Shown: positions 3,021 to 55,404 of the stretch, one piece after another
Numbering within the stretch: position 1 is the first letter of the stretch
Layout: each line of letters begins with the position of its first letter
Source: Paraspadella gotoi
Taxonomy: Eukaryota > Animalia > Chaetognatha
Assembly: GCA_051294375.1 (NCBI GenBank)
Contig: CM119267.1
Span: 9,470,863-9,534,862 of the forward strand
DNA: 64,000 nucleotides
Direction of reading: 5' to 3'
Notes under the pieces: model-generated
What the model saw: the letters and a program-made list of their open reading frames with translations, nothing else
What the model was told of the DNA's origin: nothing
The model's database searches: none
Made by a program: the position numbers and the translations under genes

Positions 3021-3829
3021 TAGAGCAAACGCCACCTGTTTCGTTACTTGGCTGGACATATTAGCTTAATCTTGATAATAATCATATTATAGTTATATTA
3101 TAGGTTTCGCCCTGTTGCCTTGATAAAAAGATCGTTGGCTTTTGCTCCTTCATAAAAATGATACATTTGTTAGATTTTACAGATCGACTAAAAATATAAA
3201 ATGGATTTCCTTAAATTTTATTTTATATTTTTCTTTTAGATTTAAACTCTTGAGGATTTAGTCTTCAAGTATTGATTCTTTTTTTCCTATTGAATCTAGT
3301 TTGTGCTATTTTTTGAGAAATTGCATCTAAACACATGGTGCTAACTAATAACTATAGTATACATTTAATTGATTTTAGGTATTTATTAATACTTAACAAT
3401 TATTTAAATTTTAAAAAAATTCTTGGTCGTTTAACAGGAGGCAAAAATTTTATTTTATTTTTTTATCGATCTGTGAAGATTTACATGAACAATTGACTGT
3501 GAGCGCGTGAGATTAGGTTTTTATAGCATTTAAAGTAAATAGGTAAATTTTGCAGAAATGGGTTATTGTTGAAATTGACTATTGAGACTTAGAAGATTTA
3601 AGACACCACACACTAAAAATATTGACTATCGTGATTAGTTTTTTTTATTCTTTGGAATTGAATCCTTTTTGACCTAAACAAGAGAATATACCAGTGTAGA
3701 TACGCTACATTATACTACAAATTCTTGTGTTATGAAACTTATTTTATATAAAGAATTCTCATGTTACTTCTCCAACATCTTCCTTTATTTAGATTTTCAG
3801 TCACGGCGAAAAAAGGCAAGTAACCCGTT

Positions 3830-4717
3830 ATGACGGAAGTAAACATTTGCTTGGCGTGTGACCGTGACTCGCCTCAAGCAGCCGACATTCCGGAGCCGAG
3901 ACACCTCGTAACTCCCGGCGACCTCATTACGACGGATCCAGGGTTTATGCGCGGCCACGGGACCTACGTCGACAACGACCGACTACAGTCCTCCGTCGCC
4001 GGCGTCGTGGAGCGAGTCAACAAGCTCATACGCGTCGAGCCATTGAAAACTCGTTACAACGGCGAAGTGGGCGATGTGGTGGTTGGTCGTGTCACCGAAG
4101 TGACGCAAAAAAGATGGAAAATCGAGACGCACGCCCGACTCGACTCCATACTACATCTCAACTCGGTCAACCTCCCTGGCGGTGAATTGCGCCGTCGGTC
4201 CGACGAGGATGAGCGAATGATGCGCGAGTATCTCTGCGAGGGTGACCTAATCAGCGCCGAAGTGCAGCAGGTTCACGCCGACGGCGCCCTTGCCCTTCAC
4301 ACCCGCAGCTTGAAGTACGGAAAGCTGGGCCAAGGGATCCTGGTCAAAGTCTCTCCCTCTCTCATCAAACGGCGCAAGTCTCATTTCCACAGCCTCCCCT
4401 GCGGCTGTTCCATCATTCTGGGCAATAACGGCTACGTCTGGATATACCCCACCGTCGCCGGCGACGAAGCGAACACCGGGGGATTTTATCAGAACCTGCA
4501 ACCGGTCGAACTCAAAGACCGGGAAACCATCGCCAGACTCAGGAATTGTGTTCTCGCCCTGGCCGATCACAAGATGATGCTCTACGATACTTCCGTCTTG
4601 TACGCCTTCGAAGCTTCTTCCGGATACGAAGCTCGAGAACTGCTGAAACCCAAAATCAAAGAAGAGATATTCAGGGACACGCTACAGAGGCTCGAAGTAG
4701 AGGGATTCGTCAATTAA
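3830..4717 (+). CDS. EXOSC2: Exosome complex component RRP4 (intronless, 295 aa)
   Basis: RRP4 motifs LVTPGDLIT, FMRGHGTY, RYNGEVGDVVVGRV, VNLPGGELRRRS, LHTRSLKYGKL, ILGNNGYVWI. Confidence 0.96.
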   Translation: MTEVNICLACDRDSPQAADIPEPRHLVTPGDLITTDPGFMRGHGTYVDNDRLQSSVAGVVERVNKLIRVEPLKTRYNGEVGDVVVGRVTEVTQKRWKIETHARLDSILHLNSVNLPGGELRRRSDEDERMMREYLCEGDLISAEVQQVHADGALALHTRSLKYGKLGQGILVKVSPSLIKRRKSHFHSLPCGCSIILGNNGYVWIYPTVAGDEANTGGFYQNLQPVELKDRETIARLRNCVLALADHKMMLYDTSVLYAFEASSGYEARELLKPKIKEEIFRDTLQRLEVEGFVN

Positions 4718-4783
4718 TACATTTTTCGCCGACTGATTTTTTCCATATTTGTTTTGTTAAATATTCGGTTTCCTTTTAAGGTT

Positions 4784-7700
4784 ATGGAACCGAAGGTCTT
4801 AAAAAGTACATTAAAGAACGCCCGAGAAGCGGTGAAAAATAAAAATTATCAAGAAGTTTATAAACTCGCGAATGAAATTTTACAGCATGACCCTAAAAAT
4901 TATCATGGCCTCGTCTTTTTGGGAATTTCTTTGCCCGAAGTGGACCCTTCCGCCGTCAAGGCCGCCGTCGACTCTTACAAGGAAGCGGCCGTTGTAAGTC
5001 CCGATCAACCGCTGGCTTGGCAAGGGCTCGCCACTCTTTATGAAAAGAATCCGATAAAAGTTTATCAGGAAGCTTGTGTGAAAGTTTATGAAAGACTCAT
5101 GTCGATCTACGAAAAGGCGGGCGGAGAAATCATGGAAAAGTATTTCGAAGTCGGCATCAAATTGGCCAAACTTCACCTCAATCGCAAGAACATGCTCGGA
5201 AGCGCGGAGATGTTCGAAAGCCTCCTTAGCCGCTCGGAGTCTGAAAATGTGGTGCCAAGAAGAGCGAAAGTGGCGAAAGTCGCCTCGGATTCTCTCGGTG
5301 CACTCATCGAGCAACTGCCTAAAGAGCAAGGGGCGTTCGTTGAAAAAATATTCATGACGCTGGTCACGGACGACGCCTTGGACGAAAGCGAGAAGCTTCC
5401 TTACTACGAACGATTGATTCGTGCCATGATCAAAAACGGACGAGATGCAAAAGACGTTGTCGGTATGACACGCGCCATGCATGCCAGCTTCCCCGATACC
5501 CGATTTCCCCTGGAGATTTTAATTCACTTCGAGTTGAGTCTAGGATTGGAATCACTTCCGGATCTCGATAAACTCGAAGAGCTGAGAGATGAAATGCGAG
5601 CGGTTAGTCCCGACTCGTACCTGATTCGTCTAGTCGACGGCGTAGATTCCTTCGCAACGAAAAACTTTCTCCGGGCGCGAAACGATCTCAAGGCTGGCCA
5701 CGACGCGATCTTCCCGAAAATCCACGTCCCGGGAGCGGTGTTTTTGGCTAAAACGTACAACGCGGTCCACGACCATCCCGCGGCACTCGCGATGGCCAAG
5801 ACGGTCAAAAAGTATTTGCACGATTCGGGAGGAGACTCGGACATCGAGTCGGCCTTTGTCTCGAAGCAACGTATCATTACCTCCCTTGATTTGATCGTGG
5901 CTCATGCCACTATCGAGGGCGGCGGCTCGGAAGAAGATATCGTTTCCTCCATTAGCGCCTTGCAGGAACTGATGGCGGACGCTTCGAATAAGTCGGCCGA
6001 TCCCTTGTCGGCTTTCGGTTTTTCCATCCTCTCGGAGGAAAGGATCGAGGAAGTTATCGGTATGGCGAAGGCTAACGGCCTTGAAGGGAACGGGAGTTTG
6101 TTGATCTTGGAAGGCGTTTTAATGGTTAGACGGAAGCGTTTCGATTCTGCTCTCGAATTATTTTCTGCTGCCGTCGAGATTAACCCAGAGAACGGTCAAC
6201 ATCATTTTTGGCGAGGAAGAGCGATTTGGGAGAAGGTTGACGGAAACGCGGAATTAGAAGAGTGTTTCTCCGAGCTTCTGTTGGCTGCCAAATTGGATCC
6301 TTACTACAGTCCGACGTTTCTATATCTCGGCCATTATTACGCGCGAATACAAGAAGACGAGGGAAAGGCTCTTAAATGTTACCAACGCGCTTTCGAATTG
6401 GATAACTGCAATTCGGAAGCCGGATCAAATTGTGTAGACCTCATGGTGGCAATCGGGCAAAGCGAGCAGGCATTTCAACTTGTTCATGGTGTCACCAGAT
6501 CTCTTGCGCCTGATCGTGCCAAATGGGCCTGGCTGCGCTTGGCCGTTCACTACCTTAATGTTGGAGAAAACGACGCGGCCGTCATGACTCTGCAAGATCT
6601 TTTAAAGGCGGATTCCGGAGATTGGATAATCTGGGAATGTCTCGGAGAGGCGTACACTAACAGAGGCTCGTACATGGCCGCTTTAAAATCTTTCGAACGC
6701 GCACTCGAATTGGAGCCTCAAGCTTCGTTCAGCAAATTTCAAAAAGCGCGAATCAAACAATTGACGGGCGCCTTTCTCGAAGCCAAAAATGATTACCTAA
6801 AAATGCTCGACGATGACGACCCCGATTTTATCCCTGCCCTTAAGGGTCTCGGAGAAACGCTGATCGAATTAGCCAAGATCGCTCTCAAACACTTTTACAA
6901 TGGCAAGGCGGTTGACTTGTGTCATATAGCTATCGAAAAACTCACCCACGCTGCGTCCCTGAGACCTGATCTAGTCTGTGTTTGGAAGTTGCTAGGAGAC
7001 GCTTGCACTCTTCTTCATATTGTTCCTGACCATCTTTGTGAAGTGCGCCTGCCGGCCAAGCTGGCGCACGACCCAACCGAAACGCAGCGGACTTGGCGCG
7101 TTCGGAAAACCTTCGCTTTTCAGACGACCTGGGATTCCGGAGAAGCTTCGCCGGATTGGAACGAACCGGCGGACACCATCGACGAGGGAGCGGCTAAAGA
7201 ACAAAGGGTCAGGACGAAGAGAAGGAGAGGGGCCAAAGAGGATGAGGTAAATGGATTTGTTCTTTGAAATTTGATATTGATTGAATTGAAATTATTAATA
7301 TAAAACGATAAAACGACTTACCACTGTTATCAGCACATTACCAATTTTAAATTTTGTGAAGTAAAGAGCGTTAAGATTTTTGGTAGAGCTTTATTCGTTG
7401 TTATGAAATATATTAATATAATAAAGATAAATAAATAATAGAAAAAATTGCACTTTTGTTCATTAGCTTTACATTTACAAGATATTTCTTTAATTTTAAA
7501 CTCTAGCCTCCCTCGGATCCAACTGGCGAAAAAGTTATTTCTAAACTAGGACTTCTCTTTATCGGAAATCGATGTTATCGACGCGCGCTAAAACTCCAAG
7601 GGAAAGAGGACGCTGGACTACTTAGCGATCTAGCGTACAATTACTTCGCCCAGAGCGAACTCGTCTTGGACGAGGATATCACCGCCAAACGGGATCTGGC

Positions 7701-10700
7701 GACTAACGCTCTTGATTTATTAAAAGAAGCTGTGATAATTGATCCCTACAATCACCTATGTTGGCTCGGATTAGGTCTGTAAGTCGGTGACTACTGACTA
7801 AGTATATTTTTTCTGACAAAAAACATTTAATGATTTTCTGTCCTTTTTGAATAAAGGAACCGTTGCATCTTGCTCTCCCGATCCTGTGCGGCAGCTGCCT
7901 TTGGCCCAACACGCCTTTATCAAATCCATAAATGTGGAAGCTAACAATCCCGTAGCCTGGACAAATCTTGGCGCTCTTTATTTGTTGCACGGACCCAAGG
8001 ACAAAAAGTTGGCTCATTTGGCTTTCAAAGCTGCTCAAAACCTCGATCCGGGGTAAAAGTAAAAAAGTGATGAGCATTGACCAGGGATTCTACATTTATA
8101 TAATATTATGAAAATTTGCAAAATTACTTGTTTCACTATTTTATTTTTTTATATTTTTTTATAAATGCTTTACTATTTAATCTATATTATTTAATGAAAT
8201 ATATATTGATTTTTAAAAATGTTATACTTTTCATTATATCTATTTATTTAATTTTATATTCAGCTACGTCGGTGGCTGGGTCGGACAAGCTTTAATCGCT
8301 GAAAGTATTGGAGATCCCGAAGCCATGGACCTTTTTCGCGTAACCGTCACAATGGAAAATAATTCTATTCACAGTGAAGGACTCCTGGGTTACGGTCACT
8401 GGGTTTGCAAGATGTTGTTGCGCAGAGGAAAGCAGAACCGGTGAGATTTATGTATTATTGATATTACAATCAAACAAAATAGAAGGAAATCTGTTTTGCC
8501 AAAATGAACCACTAATCTCAGCTGTTTGCTGTTAGATCCGCGGAAGACCTAAATGATTCGTCTTGTCTCCCCGAGTTTCATCTTCGGTACATCTTCGAAA
8601 AAATGGGCGCGATTCACGTGGCTGCCGACGCCTTGACAAAGTTTTGCGACAGGTATCCCGAGCACGTCCCTGCCGCCACCATGCTGAGTTTGCTACAAGA
8701 GCGACAATTTCTCAAACAATCCGCGGCAAATGGCTTAAACCGCGCTCTTGAAAGTCTTAAAGGTTGGCTAATTATTGTTTTTTATACGTAATTATATGCA
8801 ATTTGACGCATTCATTAACAATTACTCATTGCTTCTAGGAATCGGTCTCGCCGTGAAGAAAGAACTAGAAATAGTTGGGTCCAACTTGGCACGCGTACTT
8901 TGTTCCTTGAACAAGAGTCACGAAAGTATTGTTCAGTACAAACAATTGCCCGATATTGAAAATAACTTGTTTCAACTAGCCGGATTCGGCCTCGCACTCT
9001 TCAAATCGGGTACAGACGACAATTTGCATACGATCCATTTATTTTCATTTCTTAAAGTAAGAAGCCTGCTGAATTCTATTTGTTTTTGTCAAGGACAACT
9101 CATGGAATCTTACGTCGTTTTCGAAAAATGTTGCGAACTCGCTCCGGAACGCTTTGCCGCATGTCTGCAAGCCTGTCTTGGCATGGTATCTCACAAGTAC
9201 AACGATATTGAGGGCGCCAAAACCTGTCTCTTTAAATGCATCGAAATCGATCGTAATTTCTTGCCCGGGCTTGTGGCTCTCGCTTCAACCGGTGTGTGAG
9301 AATGTTCGGCTATCAATAACCAGCTTTAATTTAATTAGTATTTATAAATTGAGTGGTTTTTGTTCATAGGCCTCATTCATGATGACCTCGATTTATGTAT
9401 GGCCGCCTTAGAAGAATTATTAAAAGCATCGGCTCTTCCCGAATCGACTGTAGTTGAAGTGGCTCGGCTTTTTGCTCCTCTTTTGATAGAACATGGGGAC
9501 TATAAAAGTGCGAAGGCAAGTACAAGTAGTTTACGTTTTGGAATCCCAGTGTTAACTATTTATAAATACATTCAAAGTAAATCGTTAAGTTATTTTTTTG
9601 TTTAGAATCACATACAAAAGGCTATCAAAAAGTATCCTTCGTCTTCAAAATCGTGGGCATTTTTGTCTCAATTTATACTTCGGTATTCGAAAGGTATTTA
9701 TGTTGTGATTATTGTAGTGATATTACATCAATGCAGCTTTTTCTATCTGATAGTCCGTATTTTGTAAAATTATTTTAGACGAGTGCGCTCTCGCGTCCGT
9801 TGCGGCACGGAGCGCTCAAGCCGTCGACGCCAAGAACGATGAAGCCGTTTTGTTGGAGAGTCTCGGAATGCTGGTCGGCGCTTCGCCGCTTGAACCGCCT
9901 CTCTCTGATTCTAGAAGGCGGGCCAAACAATCCAAGTCTGCCATCATGGCCGCCGCCAAAGCCGTCCATTTGCATCCTGACAAATCTGAATCTTGGGCCT
10001 CGTTAACCGGTAAGATATGTTTCTTTAGTTTCTTCTCTTTTTCTTTCCATTCAAGTATCTTGTTAAATAAGTTATTCGAATACGTACATCAAGTATTCAG
10101 CTTTAAATGTTTTAATTTTCAAGCATTAACTAACATTTCGAGCATTTTAATTTATCAATATTAGCACCGGTCCTACTTTTAAATTCGATGCAAAGTCAGA
10201 ATTGGGAAAATAGTTCCGCATTTGTTAATTTGAATTTATTCTTTAGCTTCAACTTATATGATGGACGTACTTCACCGATTATCTTCCTGTGATACATCTC
10301 TTGTTAAAGAGGGTGCAACTCTGGCCGCTTCACGATCAGCCTTTGCAATTGCCGCTTCAAAATCTTCAAATTTTCTTTCGCAGGTGGGTACGCATTAAAA
10401 TTTCTATAGAATTATGGTATATCTATGTATAAATAAAAAGGTAAAGTTATAGACAAGTTTAAAAATATATTGTTTTTAGGTGTCGTCAAACAACCGGATG
10501 TATTCCTTCATTGGAAAACAGCACGTGCTCAATTTAATTCGATCCGGTGGAGATTCATTGAGAGAAGCGAAAAAAATTATAAACGTTCTTCAGGAAGGAA
10601 ATAACTTGGAGACGATGGGCCCTATTCTTTCTCAGTTGGAGGTCCTCGTAAATAAGGGAATAAGTAATCGAACCGTCGAATCCTTCAAAGAAGCCGTTAA

Positions 10701-11372
10701 TTGGGATAACGGCCTCTTTGGAAAGCAACTGCTCCTTCAGATTTTCTCTCATACGAAGGCAGATAAGGTAAATTTTTTTTCCTATTTCACTCTTTATGTC
10801 AAAATCGTTGCTAATTTTTTTAAAAATATTTTTATGTCAGGAGATTGAAGAGCTACTGCAGTCCTGCGTATCGAGTGACCATCCATCGAAACTAATCTTT
10901 TGGTCACTTATTCTCGTAAGGGCCTTCTCGGATCTATCTCAAGCTTCAGATCCATTCACAGCAAAGACACCCGAAGCGCAGAAATTGCTTGACCTGATTT
11001 CTAACTCCCACTTCAAAGAGTTGGAATCAAATCTGGTTCATCTTATTTGTGGAATAGTTCTCTTTAAGTCCAACATCAAACAGGCTCAAAAATACCTGTT
11101 CAAAGTAAGTAAAGAGTCTATCACAGTGGTTTCTCTTTCTTTTACTATTTCCTTTAATTAAAATTCCATGCTTTTTAAAGGTTCACAATGCCAATTTTCC
11201 ACCTCCTATGTCGGATGTGCCGAGGAAAATTGCTCGACGACTGTTAATCAAAGTATTAGCAGGAAAAAAAGAAAAAGAAAAGGTTTCTTTAGCATCCTTG
11301 CTAAAGGTAGCCGTAAAAGACGGTGATAAAGAATTTGTTGCAATTTACGATAACATTGTTCCTGCCATTTAA
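4784..11372 (+). CDS. TTC37: Tetratricopeptide repeat protein 37 / SKI3 (multi-exon)
   Basis: ATG at 4784. N-terminal LKNAREAVKNKNY...DPKNYHGLVFLG...PDQPLAWQGL; TPRs AAKLDPY, KCYQRAFELD, WECLGEAYTNRGSYMAALKSF, AQHAFIKSI, AWTNLGALYL, EAMDLFR. Exon 1 is 4784-7246, exon 2 starts at 7507, further short exons follow, and the last exon 11181-11372 ends in TAA. Confidence 0.92.
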
Positions 11373-11624
11373 AACATTTTGCTGTGATTTTCTACTTTTG
11401 TTTGATAATAAACCTAATTAATTTATTTCGATATTTTTTTTAAAAAAAAGGTGAAACTTAATAGTAACTTAAAAAGTTTTTACAACTATTATTAATTAAA
11501 AACAAAAGCTAGATATTTAGTTTTATCTCTATTGTTGACAATTCGTGCCAGTTGCGTATTGATCGAATTTATTCCCCAGTTTTGTGATTTTAATAAAATT
11601 TCGAACTGAATTGAAGTTATAATC

Positions 11625-13062
11625 ATGTCCGCATCTCGCGTCCCCGAGCAACTTGGCGCGCAATCCAGCGTGGCGCTCGGAATCAATTCTGTTCCCCAGC
11701 AAGTCTCGTATTACGCTCCCGTTCCGATCGGAATGGCACCTCAACAGGTGTCCTACCAGAATAACGGCATCGCTCAAAGCATGTTGTTGGCGTCGGCCTC
11801 TACCGGTGCATCGGACCCGCGTTCCACGGACGGCCATGTTACGCAAGGCGGAACCTGTTTTCCGAAGCGCATCTTCGTCGGCGGTTTTCCTGCCCAGACG
11901 ACGGAAGCAGAGCTCAAGCATTATTTTTCCCAGCATGGTTCCGTCACTGAGACCAAAATAATCCAAGATCGCGCTGGTGTTTCCAAGGGCTACGGGTTTG
12001 CCACCTTCGAAACCGCTGAAGAGGTCAATTCTATTCTCGCCAAAAGTCAGAAAGAGCCGTTTATTTTTAAAGACAGGAAGTTGAATCTTGGACCCGCCAT
12101 TCGCAAGAATACTGCTCCTACTGCCGCGACGGGGCAAATCCTTATGTACGCGCCAAACACTGTTCCGATCAACAATGAGGCCGGACAGACTGTCTTTATG
12201 ACCGGTATATAGGCGATTGATGTTTTCGATGATGTTACTTCGTTTTTACCTTTTTGTCATTTAAACACTGTCAGCACCCACGACTATGCAGTTGGCGGAT
12301 GGGGCATTCAGCCCTTATCCTACGGTTCCGCTTGTAGCAACAGCTGGGGCTCCCGCCTTTTATTTGCCTCAGCAATTGTGCTACATGCCGCAGCAGCAAG
12401 TGGCTAGTGTCAATGCTATTCAAGTTCCTCAAACTATTCAGGTAATCGTACTCTCCTTTTAGTTTTGTTTAGCCCTCACTTTTGAGAAGTCTTCTGTGAT
12501 TAAAGTTAATTTATTTGCGCCCACTTTTCCGTCATATTAGGCTTCTACTCAGCAAACGTCGTACCATTTTCGAAGCACGCCTCAGAGCCCTCCTACTCCT
12601 GGCGGGTGCCCAATAACTCCAGTCAGTTGTCATTTCACGCCCGGGGCGCCGTCTTCAACCTCCGACTTCTACAGCGGAGACTTCGATTCGAACCAAAATG
12701 AAGAAACCAATAGCTCAACTTGGGGAACCTTTTCCTGGGGATCGCAGATGACCTATCCCTCGACGGAAGTCGGCGGCGTTAACCTTGCCCGCGAGCTGGA
12801 TGCCGCAGCTGATCCATTTACTATTCCCGATCCTCCAATCTCTTCCTCGACCCACGATCCTAAACCGGAAGTAAAGCTCAGCGCGACGGTCAAAAGTGGC
12901 GGCAGCGGGTACGTTAGTTCCGCCTCCAGCAACGCTAGTCTCTATGGGAACAACAACACCAACAATAATAATACCAACGGCAATGATGAAGCTTTGGTCG
13001 GGTATCAAAAGTCGGGGGCTCTCGCTGGAGGTATCTCGACGGCGGATTGGAGCTCTTTTTAA
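11625..13062 (+). CDS. boule: Boule (DAZ-family RRM protein); join(11625..12204,12275..12441,12541..13062)
   Basis: RRM with DAZ/Boule signature PKRIFVGG...KIIQDRAGVSKGYGFATFET...RKLNLGPAIRK, followed by a Y/P/Q-rich segment. Two GT-AG introns join in frame to the 12748..13062 ORF. Confidence 0.9.
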
Positions 13063-13274
13063 ATTATGAGGAAATTCCTAGAGCTGTCTTGAAAGAAATA
13101 GTAGTTAGTGTTAGCAGACTTTTTCGCCTATCCTAAGGAACCAGATTCGTTACATTTTTTTTTTTAATTTTGGGAACTAAGACGCGAACCATTCAGAACC
13201 AGATTACCTCAGCTTAACCGGATGAATCGGAAGTTATCGGATCCTGGTCCCGACACAGTAGGAGTTTCCTCATA

Positions 13275-13826
13275 ATGGAAAATTTATGGGCAGCTGTTAG
13301 TCAAGAATCATCCTCGGAACCATCTACCGATCTCCCAAATGAGTTAATACCCGCCAATTGTCCATTGCTCGTAGAACCAAAATTGGCCCAACCCCTATAC
13401 CGACGACGATCTGATGATTTTCAAGGATCCGATTTTTCCAAAAGACCTCGTGATGAAGAACATAACCAATCCTTAGTCCCCAAGAGCTTAAACGATTTTT
13501 CTGCCCCAATTAAAGAACAAAGTCTCGAGACAGATCCTATTCACCGCCCTAATAAAAGGTTAAAAACCGACTCTTGCTTGGATGAACAACCGATTATTGA
13601 TGCCGATTCAGTGTGTTTAGGAACAAGCTTAGTACCGTTTTATCCGACAGTCTACGGCGACTTCATCGACTATTCCTCGTGCCCTTACGTAACGATGATT
13701 CCAATGATACCGAATCAATTCCCTATTAGTTCGTCCGCAAGTGATTTATGTACAACTGTAAATATTGAAAAAAGTCACGATGAAATTCTTGAAGCCACCG
13801 AATCTGAATCTTTACTCGTACCTTAG
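13275..13826 (+). CDS. Uncharacterised 183-aa ORF (orphan gene or alternative boule 3' exon)
   Basis: ATG-to-TAG ORF of 552 nt in AT-rich surroundings. Acidic/Ser-Pro-rich with basic clusters KRPR and KRLK. No family recognised. Confidence 0.5.
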   Translation: MENLWAAVSQESSSEPSTDLPNELIPANCPLLVEPKLAQPLYRRRSDDFQGSDFSKRPRDEEHNQSLVPKSLNDFSAPIKEQSLETDPIHRPNKRLKTDSCLDEQPIIDADSVCLGTSLVPFYPTVYGDFIDYSSCPYVTMIPMIPNQFPISSSASDLCTTVNIEKSHDEILEATESESLLVP

Positions 13827-15182
13827 GTTACTTAGGTTGAGTTTCCTTTGAAATCATGTCCAGAGATACTACAGATGTTTGCGGGTAGCAATTTAGAAAT
13901 TTTATTATTATCGTTTGTGTCACGTTTCGATTTGAGTGTGATAATGAATTTGTTTATGGTGCATTTCACCAAAGCCCATTAAAAGGATTTATAATTGGGC
14001 GTTTTAAGATTTGACACACCTTCAACCTACTTAGTACTTTTTTGTCACGTTAACCACTCAGTTTGTTGGTTTTCCTTTCTTGGAGATAAGAAAAAAAAAT
14101 TAGTTGAAGACGGCAGGGAGATCTTTTGTTTTCGGAGTTTGGTTAATTTTTTTAGGAAGCTTTAAAATTTAAATTGAAAATTGGCACTTCATCTGACGAC
14201 AAGTCAACGTGAAAAAGAATAATAAGTGGCTCATAGTACTAGAATTTTTCTCTTCTTTAGAGTCTAGAAATTAATTAGTTATTTATTCTTTCATTACAAG
14301 GTTCAATTTCATTCGAGCTTAATTTTCTATATAATAAATATTTAGAAAACACAATTCAAAAAAGTCTTATCTTAAATTAGTGTAAGTGTTTACCAATTTT
14401 CTTAAAGTATAAATTTAAACCATTTAAACTATTGTAAGACTTTTTAAATTTATATTTAAAATTTAATCATTTTAGGCGCCAACCATTTTTTTAGTTAACG
14501 ATTGGTGTGCTAATCAATATCTTGAGTAAATTCAGAAGTAATTTTTTTTTTAAGTTTTAACTGGCACGCTTCAAATTTCAATTTTGTTCACCATCTTTTA
14601 AAACTGAGGATGGAATTTTTTTTATTTTTGCGTCGGCTGGTTTTATTAATTGTAAATAGTTAAAAAACAAAATTCGAGCAATTGAACCACCAAACCGCCT
14701 ACCTCCAAAGAAAAACAGTTATGTATGATTTTACGCCTTTCACGAAGTGATTTTCGTGAAATTGTTTAAAACTTAAACAATTTTTTCAAAGCTTTTTAAG
14801 GACATGTTTCTTTTTATATTTTTCGCGTCGTTAGTTTAATGAGTTCCAACGTTTGAATTAAAGCGAGTTCTTTGTTTCGTTAGCCGAGTTTATGCGCTTG
14901 TAAACTCGTATACCAAATTCAGATTTTTTTTCGCCTGACGAGTTTATCCTTAGGTGGCGTATCTTTGTTATTCAAGTTTCAGAAATATTCTGATTTCTAC
15001 GTGCCATCCTCTTTGCCAATGTTTATACATAAATTTATGTAAATTTTAGCCGTAGATAAAAGTAGGAAAGCTTAATTGTATGAGATTACATGTAGATAGC
15101 TATTTTATCAATTGCTCTTTTGAATATAGAATCAGAGAATTAAATATTTAAGATCCGAAGACTTTTGCCCAAAAAATTCCCA

Positions 15183-19924
<4,742 letters not shown>

Positions 19925-21185
19925 TCATATTTTTGTTCCGTATTAGTCCGTTCATGTTGTTCCCGGTATTTTATTTTACTTCATAGTTGCTCATAATCTC
20001 TATTTTTATTACTTCAAGTGAAGATTCAAGTAATCCTATTTTAGGACAAGTAGAATTGAGGTATTAAATACCAACGGGGCAATTATGACGTCTCAGAGTT
20101 TTGACCGACCGGCAAGTTTTAGAACTTATTAAATTTTAATTAAAACGATCCAGTTTGTAGAATTCATCATTTGTTAGATTTACTATTTGCAAATTGAATA
20201 TATAATTATATATTATATATCCTTCATATTTTCATCAGAATTATGATGCTTCTAAGGCTTTGTTTTAAGATTGCCGGATTGTTCATTTCTTGCAATATCA
20301 TTTCTTCATTTGGAGGAAGAGGGCCACAGATTGGCTTCTTTTGTTTTAGAATTTCGAGTTTTTGTTTATTTAATTAAAGGAAAGTTCCTTTTTTGTTTTC
20401 TAAAAGATTTTTCCGAGTTTTCTCTTTTTAGTCACACCGGGTTCTAATAATCCGTAACAGTATTCGAGAATTCCTTAATAGTAAAAATGAAAAATCATCC
20501 CCATCTTCTTACAGCAGAATTTGTCGGTCCCACCCCAACATCTTTTCGGTAAGTTACTGAGATCATGTCAGAACATCGAATTAAGATGTATTATGCAAAA
20601 AAATCAATGTGCGTCTTTGCTTGTCCATCCATCCGTCTGTCCCTTCTTAGCTTTAAACGCCAATTACTATTTAGTGGAGTGGGCGATTTATTTGAAATTT
20701 TGTGCATGTGTAAAGTGTGTGAATGAGCTGGTAATAAGTTTCGATGGAATCGTCCAAGTGGAAATGAGTTTAAAACGGAAAAAAAAAGTTTTACTATTTG
20801 ATTATGCTTTTTTTAATATAAAAAAAGCAAATGTAAGCTGAATTGATATAAAAATATAAGATCAAAATTAATTAATTAATTAATTAATTATTTAAATAAT
20901 TATCTGATCAGCTGCTTACAGCTTATGGATCGTTGGCAGATCTGGCATTGTTTGCTAAAACTTGTTAAACTTCCTTGCTTCCTTCCTTTCTTACTGTAAG
21001 GGAGTGGATAGGGTTCCTTAAAATTTTTATCACGTTAGTATCCTCTCGATTTCTTGTTTATTCATCTATTTTATTTAAACAAATTGAAAAAAAAACATTT
21101 TTTCATAACCCGGCTGGTTAGAACATACATTATTCCTGACGGTTTGTATTTTTTTTTTGATACTTTATTTGTAGTTCAAAAAATC

Positions 21186-22032
21186 ATGAAATCAAAGAAA
21201 CTGTGTGAAAAACAATTACTTCTCAATTTTTTATATTTTTCGCTCATTTGCAATTGCGGAGTCTGCCTTGCCGATTCTAGCCCATCCGACAGGATCTTGA
21301 CGAAACTGGCCGACGAGGGCGCTGCAGCAGTCGTCGAAGCAGTCATCACCGAGGGACTCCAAGCCTTTACGTCGAGCGTCATCGAAAAGGGAGTCAAATT
21401 CGTCCAAAACAATGAACAGGCAAAAGATTATCTTAAAACTGGACTAGACATTGTTAAGGCCCTCGATCTCGACCAAGCCGCCGTCGACGACTGTCATTTC
21501 TCGTGTCCATCAAAACCCGAAGGGATTCCCGGTACACTTTATAATTTTTATCAATTAATAAACAAAAGTTTAAAAATAAAATAACAAAAGAATTGACATT
21601 TATTAAATATTGAAGGACACATACCATCAAAATACTGTTATTAATGTGCGACTACGCTATTTACAATTTAGTTTCGCCTCAGGTCGTATGTTTCGAAATA
21701 TCCACCATCGTCCTTCCTCTAACGGTTGCGGGAGCTACGGTATACACTTTGACGACCCCGATCTTCCCGCCGTCACTTCCTGCTGCGACGCCCACGATTT
21801 TTGTTATGACGAATGCGGTCACAAAAAGTTGGAGTGCGACGCCCGATTCAGTCATTGTTTGAGCGAGGCCTGCGAGAAGGAGCCGGCATCTGTTTCGACC
21901 GGACTCGAAAAAGGCGAGAGGCGTCCTCGCGAAGACTGTGCACTACTCGTAGAAGGACTCCAGTTGGCCGTTGCGTCGCTCGGTTGTCAGTCCTTCCTTA
22001 ATGCTCAAAAAGAGGCCTGCGTTTGCGTTTGA
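21186..22032 (+). CDS. PLA2G12: Group XII secretory phospholipase A2; join(21186..21531,21683..22032)
   Basis: Signal-peptide-like N terminus; CHFSCP; Ca-loop NGCGSYG; catalytic CCDAHDFCYDECG; CDARFSHCL; LGCQSFLNAQKEACVC. Confidence 0.88.
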
Positions 22033-22217
22033 CATGTTTGTGCGATTTATTTTTTAATGGTTTCTTGCTGCTATATTTATTTGTTATTACAATTATATAT
22101 ATTATTATTATGAATGTATGTAATGTTTTTACCCGATGTGATATTGAGAAAGACAGGCGATTCAAAATCATCACGTTAGTTATTTATTTACCTCAGCAGT
22201 AAAAGAGTTTCTTGGTC

Positions 22218-23060
22218 ATGATGTCCACAAAAACAAAGATTAGTCGGCCGACTGCCACCGCTCGTCCGCCCTCTATCGTAGTTAGGGTTGAGAGCGTAAC
22301 GTCGGTGTTCGTCGTCCGGCAACGCCTCGATCTGACGGAGGTCGCCCGCCTTTGCATCAACGCAGAGCTCCGTCACAATTGTGTCGAGATCCGATTGAAA
22401 AAGCCTCGAGTAACGGCTCATCTCTTCGTTAAAGGCAGCGTTAACGTTATGGGCGCCTCGAGCGAAGATGATTCCCGGACGGGCGCCAGGAGGATCGCCC
22501 GCATGCTGCAGCGTGTCGGCATTCAATACGTTCGCTTCCGACGTTTTCGCGTTGTCAATATCAATTCCACCTGCAGGTTGCCTTTCGCCGTCAGTCTCGA
22601 AAAGTTTTATCGTCTGTACCGCGAAAAACACCCGAAAGACATCGAATTTTTTCCCGAATTGGCCAACTATGTCAAGGTCACGACCGAGGGGGCCAAGCTG
22701 CATATTCACTCCACGGGAACCGTTCAGATCTTCTCCGCTTCCACGAGCGCCATCTCCTCCGAGTTGCGGACGATCTTCCCCTTGCTGCTCGGTGCTAAGG
22801 CGTCGACGAGCGCTCCAACGCCGACGAATCCTGTCATCAAGCGAGCGAAGGAGGACGACAGCGACGACAGCGACGATGAGCCTGACGAGAGTAAACGTGA
22901 AGATCGTCGACGTATTTTGAATGAAGCCGTCGCGAGGTTTGCTCAACTTGGTCCGGACGCATTTTCTAGCGACGAAGACGACGAAGAAAATGAAGCCGAG
23001 GATTCACGCCTCTTGGATAAAAACGCGAATTACGTCGGATACTTGGACAGCGACGATTAG
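22218..23060 (+). CDS. Divergent TBP-related factor (TRF2/TBPL1-like), intronless, with acidic C-terminal tail
   Basis: Two TBP-fold repeats with TRF2-like GARRIARMLQRVG..RFRRFRVVNINSTCRLPF, FPEL and LHIHSTGTV. First ATG at 22218. Confidence 0.8.
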   Translation: MMSTKTKISRPTATARPPSIVVRVESVTSVFVVRQRLDLTEVARLCINAELRHNCVEIRLKKPRVTAHLFVKGSVNVMGASSEDDSRTGARRIARMLQRVGIQYVRFRRFRVVNINSTCRLPFAVSLEKFYRLYREKHPKDIEFFPELANYVKVTTEGAKLHIHSTGTVQIFSASTSAISSELRTIFPLLLGAKASTSAPTPTNPVIKRAKEDDSDDSDDEPDESKREDRRRILNEAVARFAQLGPDAFSSDEDDEENEAEDSRLLDKNANYVGYLDSDD

Positions 23061-24756
23061 GCGTCTCGCCGCGTCCACCATCGAGTTTCATGATTTTTAT
23101 ATCTTTCGTGTTTCATTTAGTTTTGATAGCTTAGCATATACATAGGGTATGCGAATTCTTTACCTGTTATTGATCAATTGATGGCGAAATCAAGTTGGGT
23201 AATTGGTAAAATTTATATAATTTGGAACAATTTCCCCTTATAAAGTAGGTGCTTCATTCGCATAAAAATAAATCGTATCCCGACTTGTTTCGCGAATCTT
23301 AACCTTGTCCTTTTGATACGTATTTCATACGAGTTTAAATACAAGTTTACGATGCTGTTTTGTTTGACTTTGGTTATTGCAGATAACGTGTGTCGCTTTT
23401 GTCGTGCGTGGGATGATCTTGCAGTATTCCAGCAGTAGCTTACCATGGATAAAGGCAATTCTGAATCATAGCCTGAAGAGATCTCTTTTTGTTGCAGGTG
23501 AGCGAATTATCATATTAACTAAATTCTAGATTTTCTTGTCAATAGGTAATGCTGTAACATTACTGTTAACGCCTGTTAAACTTTGAACATGCATAGGTTA
23601 TTCGTAAACGTAATTATTTTGTTAAAATAAATCTTAAATATTTATTTTGTAAGAAACCAATACTATGAATAAATTTAGATAAAAACAAAGGTTTTTATTT
23701 TCTTCTTCCTTTCTATTTATCTACATTCTTTAGTTGTCTCCAATGTTCATTTCTATTGTAAAACTGTTTTTGTTCCGAAAAGTGTAGCTCAAGAATTTTT
23801 AATTCTACTTCTATGTTCTCATTTTTATATATAAAAAAAAGAAGAAAATCACCGAAACAAATTGATAGCGGTGATTGACTTTGCCCTTAATTTTCCCTGA
23901 TTCTGCGGGCTGTTCCTTTTTCGGAAAAATCGTCAATAAACGTTATCATTATTCAGGGTTTTTTTCATTATCCATTGTGAATTTAGGAACGACGCATATT
24001 GGTTCGATTAGACTCATCCATCATTCATCATCAAGTGTTGGATCTCGAGAATATTTTTTCGAAGATTTTGTTTACCCGGCTTTTTCGATGTCGATTTTTG
24101 GCGATTTCTTTAAAACTCTCGATCATTACTTTTCTATCATCCTTTCAAGGAGTAAGAGTTTTATCCTTCGCCAAACCCAATTTTTCTGCAATGTGTTCCC
24201 TCTTCCCTTCATTGTCTTTTAAATTTACTTGTCTACTATGAGAAAAAAATTTCAATTATGTGTAGTATTATGAGGTAGAGTAGGTTTATATTTTTTTGAT
24301 TTATATTTATTAAAACAATGCTATGGTTTGATAGTAGTTTTAATTTACGGTTATCCAAGACTTCTGTACGGGATAAGCCTCTCGATCCGCTCATTCGCTT
24401 AAAGATAGTCGTGGCTCAACCCCCATCCGCTATCCGACGTCGATGTTTTTCAGTTTAAAACTTCTGCTTTAATCTCTGTGAGAAGGATCGACTGTATATC
24501 CCTGACCAGTTTACCTTCAACTCGCTATGATTTGAACACAGCCTCAAAAAAAAATATAAGCCGCGACCAACTTTTTGTGCCACGTGATTTGTCCCTCATT
24601 GGATGGCGACTTCATGAACTAAAAAGTTTCTTTCATCCCACACTATTTTGGTTTACAGGTCGATAACCCTTCGCCTATTTCGGCGAAGTAACCACAAAGT
24701 ATTCCACCAAACACTTCCTTCGGACTTTCTCGGCCGATCCGCGCGAAATTTTCATC

Positions 24757-38289
<13,533 letters not shown>

Positions 38290-39445: not shown

Positions 39446-42275
39446 TTACTGTTCGGCTTTTATTTTGTTTTCGTAATCGCGCCCATGACGGTAAAGGCTC
39501 TGCACATAAGTGAAGACGCATTTCCAATCAGGCTTATCCTTCATTGCCAACATGTCGTCCACTTCCAGAAGCGGCATGGCTCCGATTGTTTCATCGGCGA
39601 CGCGAAATGCTATCTGTTTCCAAGAGGTTTAAAGTGAGAATTTTCACTTTTTTCATCCATTATGATTATGATTCTCGTGGAGGTGGTCGTGTTCGCCACT
39701 TCCTTTTCAGCCTTCAAAATTGTTTAAAAACCACTTCTTATTATCCACGGGGTTCTAAAGCCTTAATTATTCATAGAGAAATTTTGCATTATTTCTTCAA
39801 GTAATGCTAATATGTTTAAAACGCCTAAAATTCAAAGAAAAGTTGACCCGATTTTTTATTTAACTTGACATAATTTGACGAACCTCTAGGTTTTCGCGCC
39901 GATTCTTTGGGTCCAACTTGTGGAAGTCGAAAGCGTCGGAGGAGTAGTGATGGGCGATGGCGGCGAAAGCCATCCCATCGGCCCAAGACGACGAAAAGTT
40001 TCGAATGTCGACGTGGGGATAGCCTCTCGTTTTTTGCTGGCACCATGCTAGCAGGGTAGCCTTGATTTGAACAGCTGAGGAGGCCGCAGACGCTGGAGAA
40101 AACGACTGAGATCGAGACACGGCCGAGTCTTGATAAAAAACAAGAAAAATAATCACGTGATTCATCAGCCTATTTCACTTTCCGTATGAGGTTTTTACTA
40201 GTGCAAAAGCTGCTCACCGTTAGATTTCTTGTCAACTTCTTCGAAGCGCCGCTTCGCATCAGCGACGCTCGTAGGCTGAACGCGACTATTTCGTCTAAAC
40301 TCTGTGCCTATGCGGGATTAAATTGATGTCACCGATTGGTCACAACTACTAACTTGGTCGAAACAAAGTTCGGAAACTCCATTTTGGCCAATTTGTAAAT
40401 TTTCAATCGCTAAACTAAAGTTTTTTTTGGTCAATGAGACGTTCCTGAAAACATGGAAAAATCTTACCCGATTGTCTCGGTATCGTCCAGCTCCGTGAGG
40501 TTCTCCTCAGTGCGGGCGCATTAGGGTAACCTCTTCTTTCCTCTGTTAGCCCTTTTTCACCGTTTGACATGCTTTGAATCGTCGCTCTCAACCCTTTGTT
40601 TCCGGATTGCGGCGACAACAACAAAGTGGTGTTCGTCACTTGAGTTTTGGCGGGCTCCGAAATCCCACCTAGGGCTGGGGCGACGGAGTTTAGATTGGTC
40701 GGAGCCGCTTTGTCGTCGTCGACTCGCTCGTTTTCGTTTTGATTGCGTATTATCGTCTCTTTGGCTGGGAGCGACGTCGGGCTCCGACTCAAAGCCAAGA
40801 GAGATGAGGGGTGAAGGGACGGCGACGCCGATTTCCATGCGGCGCCTGAGTAACAGCAGTTCAAAACGTACAATATATGAAATGGGTACAACCAATATAA
40901 AATTATCCCTTCAAGTAATAAATAAGCTATCTTGCCCCTGACTTTGGTGGTTTTAGGCCTCCATCACTCTTACAAGACAATCACATTGTGTGTCTTGATT
41001 TAAAGCGCGCGGTATTGAAACAATGAGAATCTCACTCGCCTGTCAAACTCATGCGTCTAATATCCTGCATGCATTCCATCTGCCGCTCTCTGTCCTTTTT
41101 CGCCAACTCGATCTTCACTCTCATTTCCTCTTCTCGGCTTTCTTCAGCGATTGACTTTTGCTTGGTTAGTGACGCCTCAAAATTAAAAAAAAAGAAATTG
41201 GGTAATTGCCATTTCTGGCCTGTCCAAATGGCACTGATTAAAAAGCATCTGCAGCCAATTTTCGATGAGGCGATACCATTGCCAACTGAGCTTGTAAAGG
41301 GAACTATCACCGAAAATATATTGTTCGACGAACTTAACATGAAAAACTAAAATAGGGATACGAAAAATCAAAAAAGTAAAAGAAAAAAATAAAAAAATTG
41401 CAGCTTTCGCAATCAACAGAAATTCTTGAATTAAATGAACTTCGCTTTTAAAGAAGTATTTTAATCTCCGAAATACCTGGCTGATGGCTTGAATTTCTTG
41501 CTGTCTGAATTTCGTAGCACTGTCTCTTCTCTTCTTTAAAAATTCTTGGGATGTCGAGGCTGGATCCGGCCTTGTTTTCGAAAGCTCCTAAATCCCAAGG
41601 ACAGAAAATCGAAGAAAAAAAAATTTAAAAAAGAAATTTCCCCTTTTGTTATCGTCGATGGGGACAACTGACAACTACGGACAAAAAAAAGTCGCGTTTT
41701 TTTTTCAAACGGCAGTCTGCGCACCTGAATACGTTGCAGGCGTTCCTTCCTTTCCGACTCCCTCTCCCTCCTTCTCTTTGCACTCTCCTCTTCCCTCCTT
41801 CTTTCCCTCTCCTGTCTCTCCGCCTCTCTTTTCTCCCTGCCCGCGTCTTGAGATCGACGATCCGCTGACGAACGGCTTTCCGTTTTTCGTACGTTTCGGG
41901 TCTGACGGGAATCGAGGAATGTCAGTTAAGGAATTGACTAGTTATGTAAAGAGTTTTATTATTATTATTTTATATTTAATTTTCGGCCGCGATTTCAAAT
42001 ACGGTAGGTATTTTCTTTTTTTACCTCAAATTATGTAATGCAGAGAAAAAATAATTCCAAGCACAAAAATTTTATTTATTATTTTGAAAGTTTTTATGAT
42101 TATTTCCGTAGCTTTTAACTATATTTATATAATTTAAAAAATCGCGTAGACCTATGATCGGTGAGTTGCGAGAGCATTGACTGCAGCGCTTCGTCGTCCT
42201 CGCAGGTGGCGACATCTGGGAATAACGCAGCGTCGCCTGCGGCGGCGGCACTGGTTTTCGCGGCGACGTTCCCAG
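39446..42275 (-). CDS. Smoothelin-like protein with C-terminal type-2 CH domain (5' end not found)
   Basis: CH domain LLAWCQQKTRGYPHVDIRNFSSSWADGMAFAA..FDFHKLDPKNRRENLE|IAF..LLEVDDM..KPDWKCVFTYVQSLY, stop at 39446-39448. Smoothelin-type CEDDEALQSML..YEKRKAVRQRI upstream. Apparent frameshift in the GA-rich exon ~41725-41900. Confidence 0.75.
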
Positions 42276-44310
42276 CTATCATATTGAATATGATCTTTTT
42301 AATTCTTTCCAGTCGAAAATTCGCAGTCCTTGCGAATGGAGGAGGTTTCTTTATCACTCACGATCTTTATTAGTTTTTTTCGAGAAAAAAAAAAGTAAGC
42401 GAGAGATGGATGTTGAATGGATGAAAAACGAGAGAGAGAAAACTTTGGAATCCCGGGAGAAGGGCCGTCGCCGAGCCGGCCCCCAGTCCCCGAGATTTTT
42501 TAAAGGGTAAATTTTTGCACAGATTCTCCCCCCCTCCTAGAACCGTAGTCAGTCTTTGCACTTCGTATGAAGGATGCTTCGAATTTCGTGAATTTATATT
42601 AATGTAATTAAACGCTAGAACCACTGCCGACCTTTTTAGGGAAAACCTCGGTTTGTTCACGTTATCTCTGGTCTGTAAAGGGTAGAGGGCTTCGTCATCA
42701 GTTTGTCTTTCTTTCATAAGAGGTAAAAATAAAAATCTCGAGATAAAACGTTTTTAGGCCCGAAGGGGAAGGAAAGGAACAAAAACTAATCCAGAACTAA
42801 ACTTTAACGACGTACAACTGCCGAGTATGAACGAGAAGACCAAATCAAAAGGTTTTAGCAAGCTCTTTTTAACCACTGTTTTTTAACATTTTTTTTTCAC
42901 CCTTGCATTATCGAAGTGTCAGAATGCGGATTTTTGGCTGTGAATATCTTTTTTGTCGATTTTGGAACCGGAGAGAGAATGTTTTATCTTAATTTTTACA
43001 CGAAGATAAATTACATTCTATTTATAATTTAAAAGTTAAAGGACGAGCTTCACGAAAATAAAAATGCGTGATTTCACTACATTTTCCGAAATATTCGATT
43101 TGATTTCTGGACGGAGCGCTTTTCCAACTTGATTTTAAAATCGAAATCGGGCACTATATTTCAAAGGATCACTGTAAACATGTTGAAATTGTTGTTTCAA
43201 GACGTCGTGATGCGTGACAGATGTTTGGGGAAAAGAGGAAAATCTTTAGTTGACGGAGGACCAACTTGAGCTCACTCGTACTTTGCACCCTCGTTAAAAA
43301 AAAAGGCTTTTTCCGTTGAAATATCGCAGGACCGCACCCATTTTTCTCCCCCTCCTAACTTTTTTTTTTGACGTTAAAAAAAACCTATAAAAAGCTGAAT
43401 GAATGAAGACCCCTTCGGGATTTCGTAATGAATCTTTCTTTTAAGCAGCATTGAACTTTACCTGAGTTTGCGAATTGGCAGATGATACCGAAAAAAAGGG
43501 AAATAAATTTGGCCGTGAAATTTGTTGAAGGATCTTAGCGCTAATTTGACCCGAGGATTTTGGTCAACACGGTTTACTTTTCTGTTTCTCTTTCGTCCAA
43601 AGACGCGGTCAACAAATGGTTCAAGTTAAGGCGACTAATACAAGGATGTTTTGTAACGAGGAATATTCGCCCTCGTTTGTGATCGATAATGAGAACAAAA
43701 AAGATTAAGACTCGCAACGTGCCGATTGAAGTTTTGTTTTGGTCGATGATGAATGGGGATAAACAAAAATCAGTGACTTGAATGATTACCCATTTTTAAA
43801 AAGCCATTAATATGAAGAAAGCTAGTGTTAACTGAAAAGATACTGGTGTTTAATTTCTTCGAAGTTTTGTAACTTTCAACAGTGAAATTTGAAAATGTAG
43901 GCGTTTTACGATCATATTGTTTTAATGAATAGCAAATAGCACAAAATAGATTACACAAAGATAGTCGCTTTAATTAATACCAAATAAATAGTGCTCCTTT
44001 TTTATTTAAGCGGCATAGTTTTTTTTTTAAATCTGTTTGTATTTAGCAGTAAATAAGTACATTCAACTCTCGCCTTTATAATTTATTCCCAAGTTCCTCC
44101 TAGGAAGGGAAGTCTTTTTGCTAGAACCTTCAAAATTTCCATTGTATATTGCTTTACTGGGAAAATAAATCTTTTGTTCCACTTAAGTCTAAGTTCTTTT
44201 AATTTGCCTCCCGCGGAAACAACAACAGTAAACCCGCCTCAACGAAGAAAATTTTCGTGATTTCTTTTTCGAAAAAAGTTGAGCATTCGATCCCGGAGTT
44301 TAGAATTTTT

Positions 44311-53151: not shown

Positions 53152-53183
<32 letters not shown>

Positions 53184-55029: not shown

Positions 55030-55086
<57 letters not shown>

Positions 55087-55372: not shown

Positions 55373-55404
<32 letters not shown>

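What the first reader, a model, noticed from the sequence alone, without database searches (positions are those of the whole stretch)
3830..23060. Candidate operon-like germline/RNA-surveillance cluster: RRP4-SKI3-boule-orphan-Piwi-PLA2G12-TRF2-like
Seen: seven consecutive co-oriented genes in 19 kb, within a run of nine. Stop-to-start spacers are 66, 252, 212 and 185 bp at four junctions. A pyrimidine-rich AG acceptor lies shortly before most ATGs (ttttcag 3800, ttttaag 4780, ttccccag 11579, tttaag 15152, tttgtag 21174, cctcag 22196, tttacag 24658). Established: Boule is a meiotic translational regulator, Piwi is the piRNA effector, TRF2 acts in spermatogenesis and in Drosophila piRNA-cluster transcription, and RRP4 plus SKI3 degrade RNA 3'->5', including sliced fragments. 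I know of no such linkage in model animals. Inference: a co-regulated, possibly polycistronic and trans-spliced germline module linking transcription, slicing, decay and translation control.
Basis: partly seen in the sequence, partly recalled or inferred. Interest (0 to 1): 0.8.

Follow-up and report, generated by a model that had tools for sequence, protein, structure and literature searches.

The report
Boule–Piwi operon, likely arrow worm
Six genes of an unidentified animal (likely an arrow worm), among them the germ-cell regulators boule and Piwi and two RNA-decay subunits, lie head to tail and spliced RNA covers most of the DNA between them, so they likely form one operon cut apart by spliced-leader trans-splicing, a mechanism already known in arrow worms, though the leader itself was not seen.

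Summary
The layout is real. All four spacers and seven AGs lie where stated, and five gene names hold: RRP4, SKI3, boule, Piwi (PIWIL2-like), PLA2G12. The sixth is a divergent TBP-family gene, TRF2-like at best.

One public run, held as spliced contigs, changes the picture. The 'orphan' ORF sits on a continuous, evenly deep path behind the boule stop, so it is likely no separate gene. The two long spacers are mostly transcribed. RRP4 and SKI3 share one spliced contig. Four of eight listed contig termini fall on a CAG, including the boule start at the base after the predicted acceptor. No leader sequence was seen.

Best reading: a spliced-leader-resolved operon of six genes, perhaps seven with coronin. 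Unreviewed scan notes call this genome an arrow worm and report another operon in it; I could not confirm the phylum. In the arrow worm Paraspadella, 18% of genes are operonic, and operonic plus trans-spliced genes dominate germline markers, so this is likely a new member of a known kind. A dedicated germline RNA module is untested: PLA2G12 and coronin are unrelated, and neither co-expression nor synteny could be checked.

The parts
3792..3800 (+). Two good acceptor AGs (ending 3792 and 3800) before RRP4; candidate 5' trans-splice site
   Evidence: top 1.5-2% of background AGs; no contig end seen here
3830..4717 (+). RRP4/EXOSC2, single exon, 295 aa; an RNA contig starts at 3942, the base after an internal CAG (3939-3941)
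   Evidence: Pfam RRP4_S1, KH_6, ECR1_N; 70% to a named animal RRP4
4718..4783 (+). 66-nt spacer with acceptor AG ending 4780; no AATAAA/ATTAAA and no credible donor; crossed by one spliced contig
4784..11372 (+). SKI3/TTC37, 14 exons, 1681 aa, GC-AG intron 9516-9605; contig ends at 11380
   Evidence: best PDB match human SKI3/TTC37, E 3e-94; spliced length 5896 matches
11381..11579 (+). 199 nt without contig cover, with AATAAA 11407, a donor-like site at 11451 and acceptor CAG ending 11579; the junction most able to hold a promoter
11580..13062 (+). boule (CDS 11625-13062, 3 exons, 422 aa); contig starts exactly at 11580
   Evidence: RRM; RNP2 and RNP1 each one residue off the Boule consensus of PMC2904765; DAZL is the best single-domain PDB match
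13063..15117 (+). Transcribed 3' region of boule; holds the 183-codon 'orphan' ORF 13275-13826 and a minor form lacking 223 nt (13071-13293)
15183..19924 (+). Piwi, PIWIL2-like, 8 exons, 1030 aa, 6 GRG motifs in the N-terminus, D-E-D-H residues present; contig runs unspliced to 20765
   Evidence: catalytic-residue assignment recalled
21186..22032 (+). PLA2G12-like secreted phospholipase, 2 exons, 231 aa; its contig also covers 20779-21086 upstream and is inferred to end at about 22193-22197
   Evidence: Pfam PLA2G12; depth arithmetic
22195..23381 (+). Divergent TBP-family gene (TRF2-like; CDS 22218-23060, 280 aa, acidic tail); contig runs from the A of AG 22195-96 to the A of AG 23381-82
23383..23497 (+). 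Predicted non-coding first exon of coronin (donor at 23498, intron to AG 24658); holds two short upstream ORFs; not verified in RNA
24757..38289 (+). Coronin, possible seventh cistron; two alternative last-exon sets

Best explanation
RRP4, SKI3, boule, Piwi, PLA2G12 and a TRF2-like gene lie head to tail with spliced RNA covering most of the DNA between them, and they are likely transcribed as one polycistronic RNA that would be cut into single messages by spliced-leader trans-splicing, likely in an arrow worm. A promoter upstream of about 3790 would drive the unit. Each upstream message would be polyadenylated at or near the acceptor AG of the next gene, and a leader would be added behind that AG. 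Boule and Piwi carry long 3' regions (about 2 kb and 0.8-1.2 kb), which is why two spacers looked long. The 'orphan' ORF is part of the boule transcript, possibly a rarely used alternative coding end. Coronin may be a seventh cistron. The genes most likely share a unit because they share broad or maternal/germline expression, not because they form one pathway. Shown: gene structures, splicing, contig cover and contig ends. Inferred: leader addition, a single promoter, the phylum, germline expression.
For: Run X1, spliced contigs. One contig runs 3942-11380 across the 66-nt RRP4-SKI3 spacer with all SKI3 introns removed (length 5896 as predicted). Overlapping contigs run 11580-15117, ending 12-35 nt before three AGs ahead of Piwi. 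The Piwi contig reaches 20765. One contig (depth 263.7) carries differences at 20779-21086, the PLA2G12 intron joint and a gap at 22100, so it crosses AG 21174. The TRF-like contig runs 22195-23381, and bin depth puts the PLA2G12 end at about 22193-22197. Four of 8 listed outer termini (3942, 11580, 22195, 23381) lie on the A, the G or the next base of a CAG: P about 6e-5 for CAG, 0.02 for any AG, with the window chosen after seeing the data. A start at the base after CAG would need a competing upstream letter other than G. Of 35 modelled exons, 30 end in G, whereas all listed chaetognath leaders end in A (PMC2481426 Table 3). 3' ends at the next acceptor match Ciona operons (PMC1488885) and the Spadella RPS14-PCNA operon (3 nt; PMC2481426). 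[quoted passage not shown]
Against: No leader was seen: none of the 3 loose ends in 11100-15599 is at 11580 or near 15153, and only 6 of 63 loose ends were shown for the whole locus. The evidence is one run, held as contigs, with RNA status guessed; the tool states that a contig across two genes shows no single transcript. No contig bridges SKI3-boule (199 nt) or boule-Piwi (205 nt, 140 of them Piwi coding sequence). Four of 8 termini (11380, 15117, 15323, 20765) are not at a CAG. The TRF-like contig starts at the A of the AG, not behind it, which an A-ending leader does not predict. The Piwi-PLA2G12 path passes through a repeat at about 20736-20774. Two claimed acceptors score no better than background. 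The phylum rests on unreviewed notes; my searches found only unnamed close relatives.
Confidence: 0.55

Rival explanations
1. Two units rather than one: RRP4-SKI3 is one operon, and a second promoter in the 199-nt gap (or inside SKI3) starts boule-Piwi-PLA2G12-TRF-like-coronin, with boule receiving its leader from a short outron.
For: No contig cover at 11400-11549, AATAAA at 11407, and a step in contig depth from 133 to 531 at this junction.
Against: Contig depth cannot rank genes, and a hole proves nothing (tool notes); cistrons of one operon can differ in level (PMC11067885); 199 nt is under the 250-bp cut-off used for Paraspadella.
Confidence: 0.22
2. Independent genes in a compact region: each has its own promoter hidden in the previous gene's 3' region, the transcripts merely touch or overlap, and the assembler fused them.
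For: No leader seen; the TRF-like start at C|A 22195 fits an initiator (recalled rule); AATAAA at 4838 could end RRP4 inside SKI3 and cause an overlap fusion; donor-like sites at 11451, 20549 and 23498 allow cis-spliced first exons.
Against: Starts exactly behind CAG at 11580 and, inside a single-exon gene, at 3942; a 3' end on the next acceptor at 23381; the Piwi and PLA2G12 contigs are not broken at donor 20549 or AG 21174.
Confidence: 0.15
3. One reading: the linkage is a selected, co-regulated germline module that joins transcription, slicing, decay and translation control.
For: RRP4-SKI3-boule-Piwi are consecutive. Exosome and SKI2/3/8 degrade 5' slicer fragments in Drosophila cells and Arabidopsis (PMC4678812). 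Rough expectation from Paraspadella operon counts: 0.02 adjacent pairs among an assumed 14 exosome/SKI genes and 0.04 among an assumed 20 germline genes.
Against: Those gene sets were picked after the fact, and a genome has many pathways. PLA2G12 and coronin share the run. RRP4 and SKI3 are housekeeping genes (recalled). Oikopleura operons are loosely related in function and not conserved (PMC11067885). None of 17 distant RRP4 loci held SKI3, boule, Piwi, PLA2G12 or the TRF-like gene, but most are short and none is a close relative.
Confidence: 0.12

Closest known systems
Chaetognath SL-resolved operons (Spadella cephaloptera RPS14-PCNA, PMC2481426; Paraspadella gotoi, PMC12460157)
   Same: Co-oriented genes under 250 bp apart at transcript level; poly(A) end within a few bases of the next acceptor; six to seven genes, within the reported maximum of nine; housekeeping plus germline content.
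   Different: Leader not seen here; phylum unconfirmed by me; the boule/Piwi/exosome/SKI3 content is not described in the passages read (the gene table, MOESM3.xlsx, was too large to read).
Ciona intestinalis operons without intercistronic DNA (PMC1488885) and C. elegans SL1-type operons
   Same: The upstream 3' end lies at the AG of the downstream acceptor, often without AATAAA, and is sometimes seen 2 nt short; this fits PLA2G12/TRF-like and the TRF-like 3' end.
   Different: Here some junctions may keep 12-200 nt, and poly(A)-adjacent reads were not available.
Oikopleura dioica operons (PMC11067885)
   Same: Mixed functions with a trend to housekeeping and germline genes.
   Different: This genome is less compact locally (introns up to 7 kb, satellites); conservation is untested.
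TRF2/TLF/TBPL1 (PMC3142196)
   Same: TBP fold with two repeats; closer to a TRF2-like protein (87 bits) than to TBPs (at most 64.5 bits); 1 of 4 TATA-wedging phenylalanines kept.
   Different: Only 32-35% identical to that protein, below the 40-45% quoted among metazoan TLFs; acidic C-terminal tail; orthology not shown.

Membership tests
SL-resolved eukaryotic operon | Co-oriented genes with very short transcript-level gaps | tested here: met
   Gaps bridged (RRP4-SKI3; before PLA2G12), 199 nt, at most 65 nt to the Piwi ATG, about 0 nt
SL-resolved eukaryotic operon | Non-genomic spliced leader on downstream mRNAs | tested here: inconclusive
   No leader among the loose ends shown (6 of 63; 3 of 3); contigs drop short tips; starts at CAG+1 are indirect
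SL-resolved eukaryotic operon | Polycistronic precursor across junctions | tested here: inconclusive
   Spliced contigs cross 2 of 5 junctions, but contigs are not molecules
SL-resolved eukaryotic operon | Upstream 3' end at or near the downstream acceptor | tested here: inconclusive
   23381 on an AG whose use is unverified; PLA2G12 end inferred from depth; boule end 12-35 nt before AGs; SKI3 end 199 nt away
SL-resolved eukaryotic operon | Single upstream promoter, none between genes | not testable with these tools
   Needs CAGE or ATAC
Chaetognatha (host lineage) | Proteins group with named chaetognath sequences | tested here: inconclusive
   Closest RRP4 (80-86%) and Piwi (66-74%) relatives carry no species name; named animals reach 70% and 50% at the top of the lists; assignment comes from notes e1-10588163 and e1-10588733
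Boule | RNP2 PNRI(V)FVGG and RNP1 DRAGV(I)SKGYGFV(I) | tested here: met
   One substitution in each motif
Boule | At least two conserved introns within the RRM | tested here: not met
   The RRM lies in one exon; neighbouring RRP4 and the TRF-like gene are also intronless, so local intron loss is likely, and the name rests on the protein motifs
PIWIL2-type Piwi | N, PAZ and PIWI domains; best named hits PIWIL2 | tested here: met
   74.7% over 767 aa without gaps to P0256; no tree built
TRF2/TBPL1 | TBP fold lacking TATA-binding residues; groups with TBPL1 | tested here: inconclusive
   1 of 4 phenylalanines kept, read from the alignment to plant TBP (positions mapped by recall from PMC3142196); Atlas 0.94 for both TBP-like and TBPL1 clusters; no tree
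Independent 'orphan' gene | Own transcript boundary or homologues | tested here: not met
   No break and no depth drop across 13041-13321; 0 hits; a minor leader join cannot be excluded
Co-regulated germline module | Correlated germline expression and conserved linkage | not testable with these tools
   One run, no tissue data, no related genome held

The most novel reading that the evidence does not exclude
A conserved animal operon that works like a bacterial one: it co-transcribes a piRNA slicer, the exosome and SKI subunits that clear its cut products, the meiotic translational regulator Boule and a lineage-specific TRF2-like initiation factor as one germline RNA-control unit, with cistrons cut at the next gene's acceptor and a hidden second coding end on boule.
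Probability: 0.12. Interest if true: 0.75.

Novelty: new member of a known kind. Interest (0 to 1): 0.38.

Why it matters
If confirmed, this is a long operon holding two classic germline genes side by side, a concrete case for testing whether animal operons group genes by maternal/germline expression or by pathway. It also shows that stop-to-start distances hide operon junctions behind long 3' regions. The mechanism itself is already described for arrow worms, tunicates and nematodes.

Tried and rejected
No whole genome is held, so there is no genome-wide null for runs or spacers. Rfam gathering scan of the window: 0 matches, so no SL RNA gene was detected. Missing cover at 11400-11549 and 15150-15299 proves nothing by itself.

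The acceptor matrices were trained and scored on the window's own 35 introns; one coronin boundary was off by one base. The first two SKI3 models had wrong splice sites and were corrected.

Microsynteny: 17 metagenome loci of distant RRP4 genes showed none of the other five genes; no look-alike windows in the scan; 0 hits for six gene names in the 3 readable supplements of PMC12460157, whose gene table could not be read. The EST/BAC alignment files of PMC2481426 were unreadable. A search for boule + piwi + operon + trans-spliced found 0 papers; this is one search in a partial library.

Orphan: readthrough or frameshift from the boule stop meets other stops (read from sequence). The observed 223-nt skip does not join the boule frame to the ORF. 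A HEV_ORF1 Pfam hit on PLA2G12 exon 1 is below cut-off and was dismissed. PMC2566580 and PMC7986045 added nothing used here. No folds, complexes or trees were run.
Full report
Observation. I read the whole window and built gene models. The four short spacers are exact: 66, 252, 212 and 185 nt; the other two are 1356 and 1261 nt. The final models give open frames of 295, 1681, 422, 1030, 231 and 280 aa. Upstream lies the end of a Cache-domain gene (Pfam hits below cut-off; stop at 2157). Downstream lies a coronin (DUF1899; name recalled). After that the strand changes (CH-domain exon).

Gene identities. RRP4 carries all expected domains and is 70% identical to a named animal RRP4. SKI3 exon 1 matches human SKI3/TTC37 best (E 3e-94). 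The RRM protein has both Boule signature motifs of PMC2904765 (passages read) with one change each, and DAZL is its best single-domain structure match; it lacks the introns that paper describes inside the RRM. Piwi's named hits are mostly PIWIL2, and the model aligns without gaps to an unnamed relative (74.7% over 767 aa). PLA2G12 passes Pfam's cut-off. The TBP-family protein is very divergent: one hit among 2391 candidates (32%), itself nearest a TBPL1 cluster, against at most 64.5 bits for solved TBPs. 'TRF2-like' is fair; orthology is not shown.

The AG argument from sequence alone is weak. AGs occur 42 times per kb in the non-coding DNA here. With matrices from the window's 35 modelled introns, only the SKI3 acceptor stands out against the best AG of a random 100-nt stretch (P 0.03; others 0.12-0.93). 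AG 15152 is poor and AG 21174 is average. A same-strand run of eight among 10-11 genes has P about 0.02 in one window.

RNA evidence. One of three listed runs, X1, holds the locus (72% of words). It is kept as contigs and its RNA status is a guess, but its contigs lack the introns and three have exactly the predicted spliced lengths (5896, 3794, 1322). Record 1 runs from 3942 in RRP4 through the 66-nt spacer and all of SKI3 to 11380. Boule starts at 11580, the base after the predicted AG, and continues through overlapping contigs (depth 531; 413 plus a 123-deep skip form; 483) to 15117, 12-35 nt before three AGs ahead of Piwi. The Piwi contig runs 15323-20765. A contig of depth 263.7 has features at 20779-21086, the PLA2G12 intron joint and 22100, so it crosses AG 21174; its ends were not listed, and bin depth places its 3' end at about 22193-22197. 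The TRF-like contig runs 22195-23381, from the A of one CAG to the A of the next. A strong donor at 23498 suggests that a first exon of coronin starts behind that last AG; this was not verified.

What the contig ends mean. Four of the eight listed outer termini (3942, 11580, 22195, 23381) lie on a CAG or the base behind it; four do not (11380, 15117, 15323, 20765). I left out the internal breaks at 13041-13321, which the skip form explains. The chance is about 6e-5 counting CAG and 0.02 counting any AG, with the window chosen after the fact. In an assembly graph a start at CAG+1 would arise where a competing upstream sequence ends in a letter other than G (inference). Cis exons here end in G in 30 of 35 cases; all chaetognath leaders in Table 3 of PMC2481426 end in A (section read). 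The start at 3942 lies inside a single-exon gene and fits a cryptic leader join. A 3' end on the next acceptor fits Ciona operons, where ends 2 nt short are also reported (PMC1488885, passages), and Spadella's 3-nt junction (PMC2481426, passages). Against this, no leader appeared: none of the 3 loose ends is at an acceptor, and 57 of 63 were hidden. SKI3-boule and boule-Piwi are not bridged, and the TRF-like start at the A of AG is not what an A-ending leader predicts.

The orphan. The ORF at 13275-13826 has no relative among 1.84 billion representatives and no Pfam match. Its codon score is weak (0.08, against 0.47-0.55 for the two boule exons held out of training) and its GC3 is 0.34, yet its 202-codon open frame arose in only 1 of 5000 simulations. 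The contig that covers just the spacer before it is nearly as deep as its neighbours, so most molecules likely run from boule through it. A donor at 13031 would join boule in frame to AG 13293. That join was not seen, but the minor skip form ends at the same AG with a non-canonical GA start and could be an allele. I read the ORF as part of the boule transcript, perhaps a rare alternative coding end; this is unexplained.

Lineage. My searches found close relatives only among unnamed sequences (RRP4 80-86%, Piwi 66-74%). Two unreviewed scan notes on other pieces of this genome call it an arrow worm, and one reports a nine-gene operon. I had already consulted chaetognath papers as a guess; the notes raised my confidence in that lineage, which I did not confirm.

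Mechanism and comparison. The best reading (0.55) is one leader-resolved operon of six genes, perhaps seven. A split at SKI3-boule (0.22) and independent touching genes (0.15) are the rivals. [quoted passage not shown] Oikopleura operons are functionally loose, lean to housekeeping and germline genes and are not conserved (PMC11067885, passages). Finding boule and Piwi in an operon is therefore expected in kind. Their adjacency, next to RRP4-SKI3, is less expected: rough counts give 0.04 and 0.02 such pairs, with assumed and post hoc gene sets. Exosome and SKI do clear slicer fragments in fly cells and Arabidopsis (PMC4678812, passages), and TLF acts in mouse spermatogenesis (PMC3142196, passages); the TRF2 role at fly piRNA clusters I saw only in search listings. 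PLA2G12 and coronin do not fit the module, and neither co-expression nor synteny could be tested. One search for boule, piwi, operon and trans-spliced together found no paper. The unreadable gene table of PMC12460157 may already list this operon.

Verdict. A real and probably polycistronic locus, a new member of a known kind, with one gene fewer than claimed. The functional-module idea remains a 12% possibility worth a synteny check. Interest 0.38.

Noticed in passing
window 13071-13293: A minor RNA form (depth 123 against 413) lacks 223 nt between GA and AG ends and loses the orphan ORF's ATG; a non-canonical intron, a deletion allele or a template switch.
   Followed up: partly
window 13218-13826: 202-codon open frame in the boule 3' region, 1 in 5000 by simulation, in frame with a donor at 13031 through AG 13293; no homologue.
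   Followed up: partly
window 22218-23060: Intronless, very divergent TBP-family gene with an acidic tail and 1 of 4 TATA-wedging phenylalanines; one database hit only.
   Followed up: partly
window 3939-3942: The RRP4 contig begins right behind an internal CAG, 5 nt before an in-frame ATG that would give a 256-aa form.
   Followed up: partly
window 9516-9605: GC-AG intron in SKI3, supported by the exact contig length.
   Followed up: yes
window 26318-30316: Two arrays of a 31-nt satellite (44 and 51 copies) in the first coding intron of coronin.
   Followed up: no
window 37085-37252 and 38041-38289: Coronin has two similar, alternative last-exon sets (likely coiled-coil), each giving an open frame.
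   Followed up: partly
window 44311-47259 (-): 982-codon open frame without a Pfam match, upstream of CH-domain exons near 39860-42360; possibly one smoothelin-like gene (name recalled).
   Followed up: no
window 50800-64000: A P-type calcium pump gene (name recalled) with two stretches present twice at 83-86% identity, rich in gaps and next to N runs; likely an assembly artefact from noisy long reads.
   Followed up: partly
window 16387-19573: Contigs with long loose ends at 16387 and 19573 and a weak joint between 16415 and 19551 suggest a second expressed Piwi paralogue in run X1.
   Followed up: no
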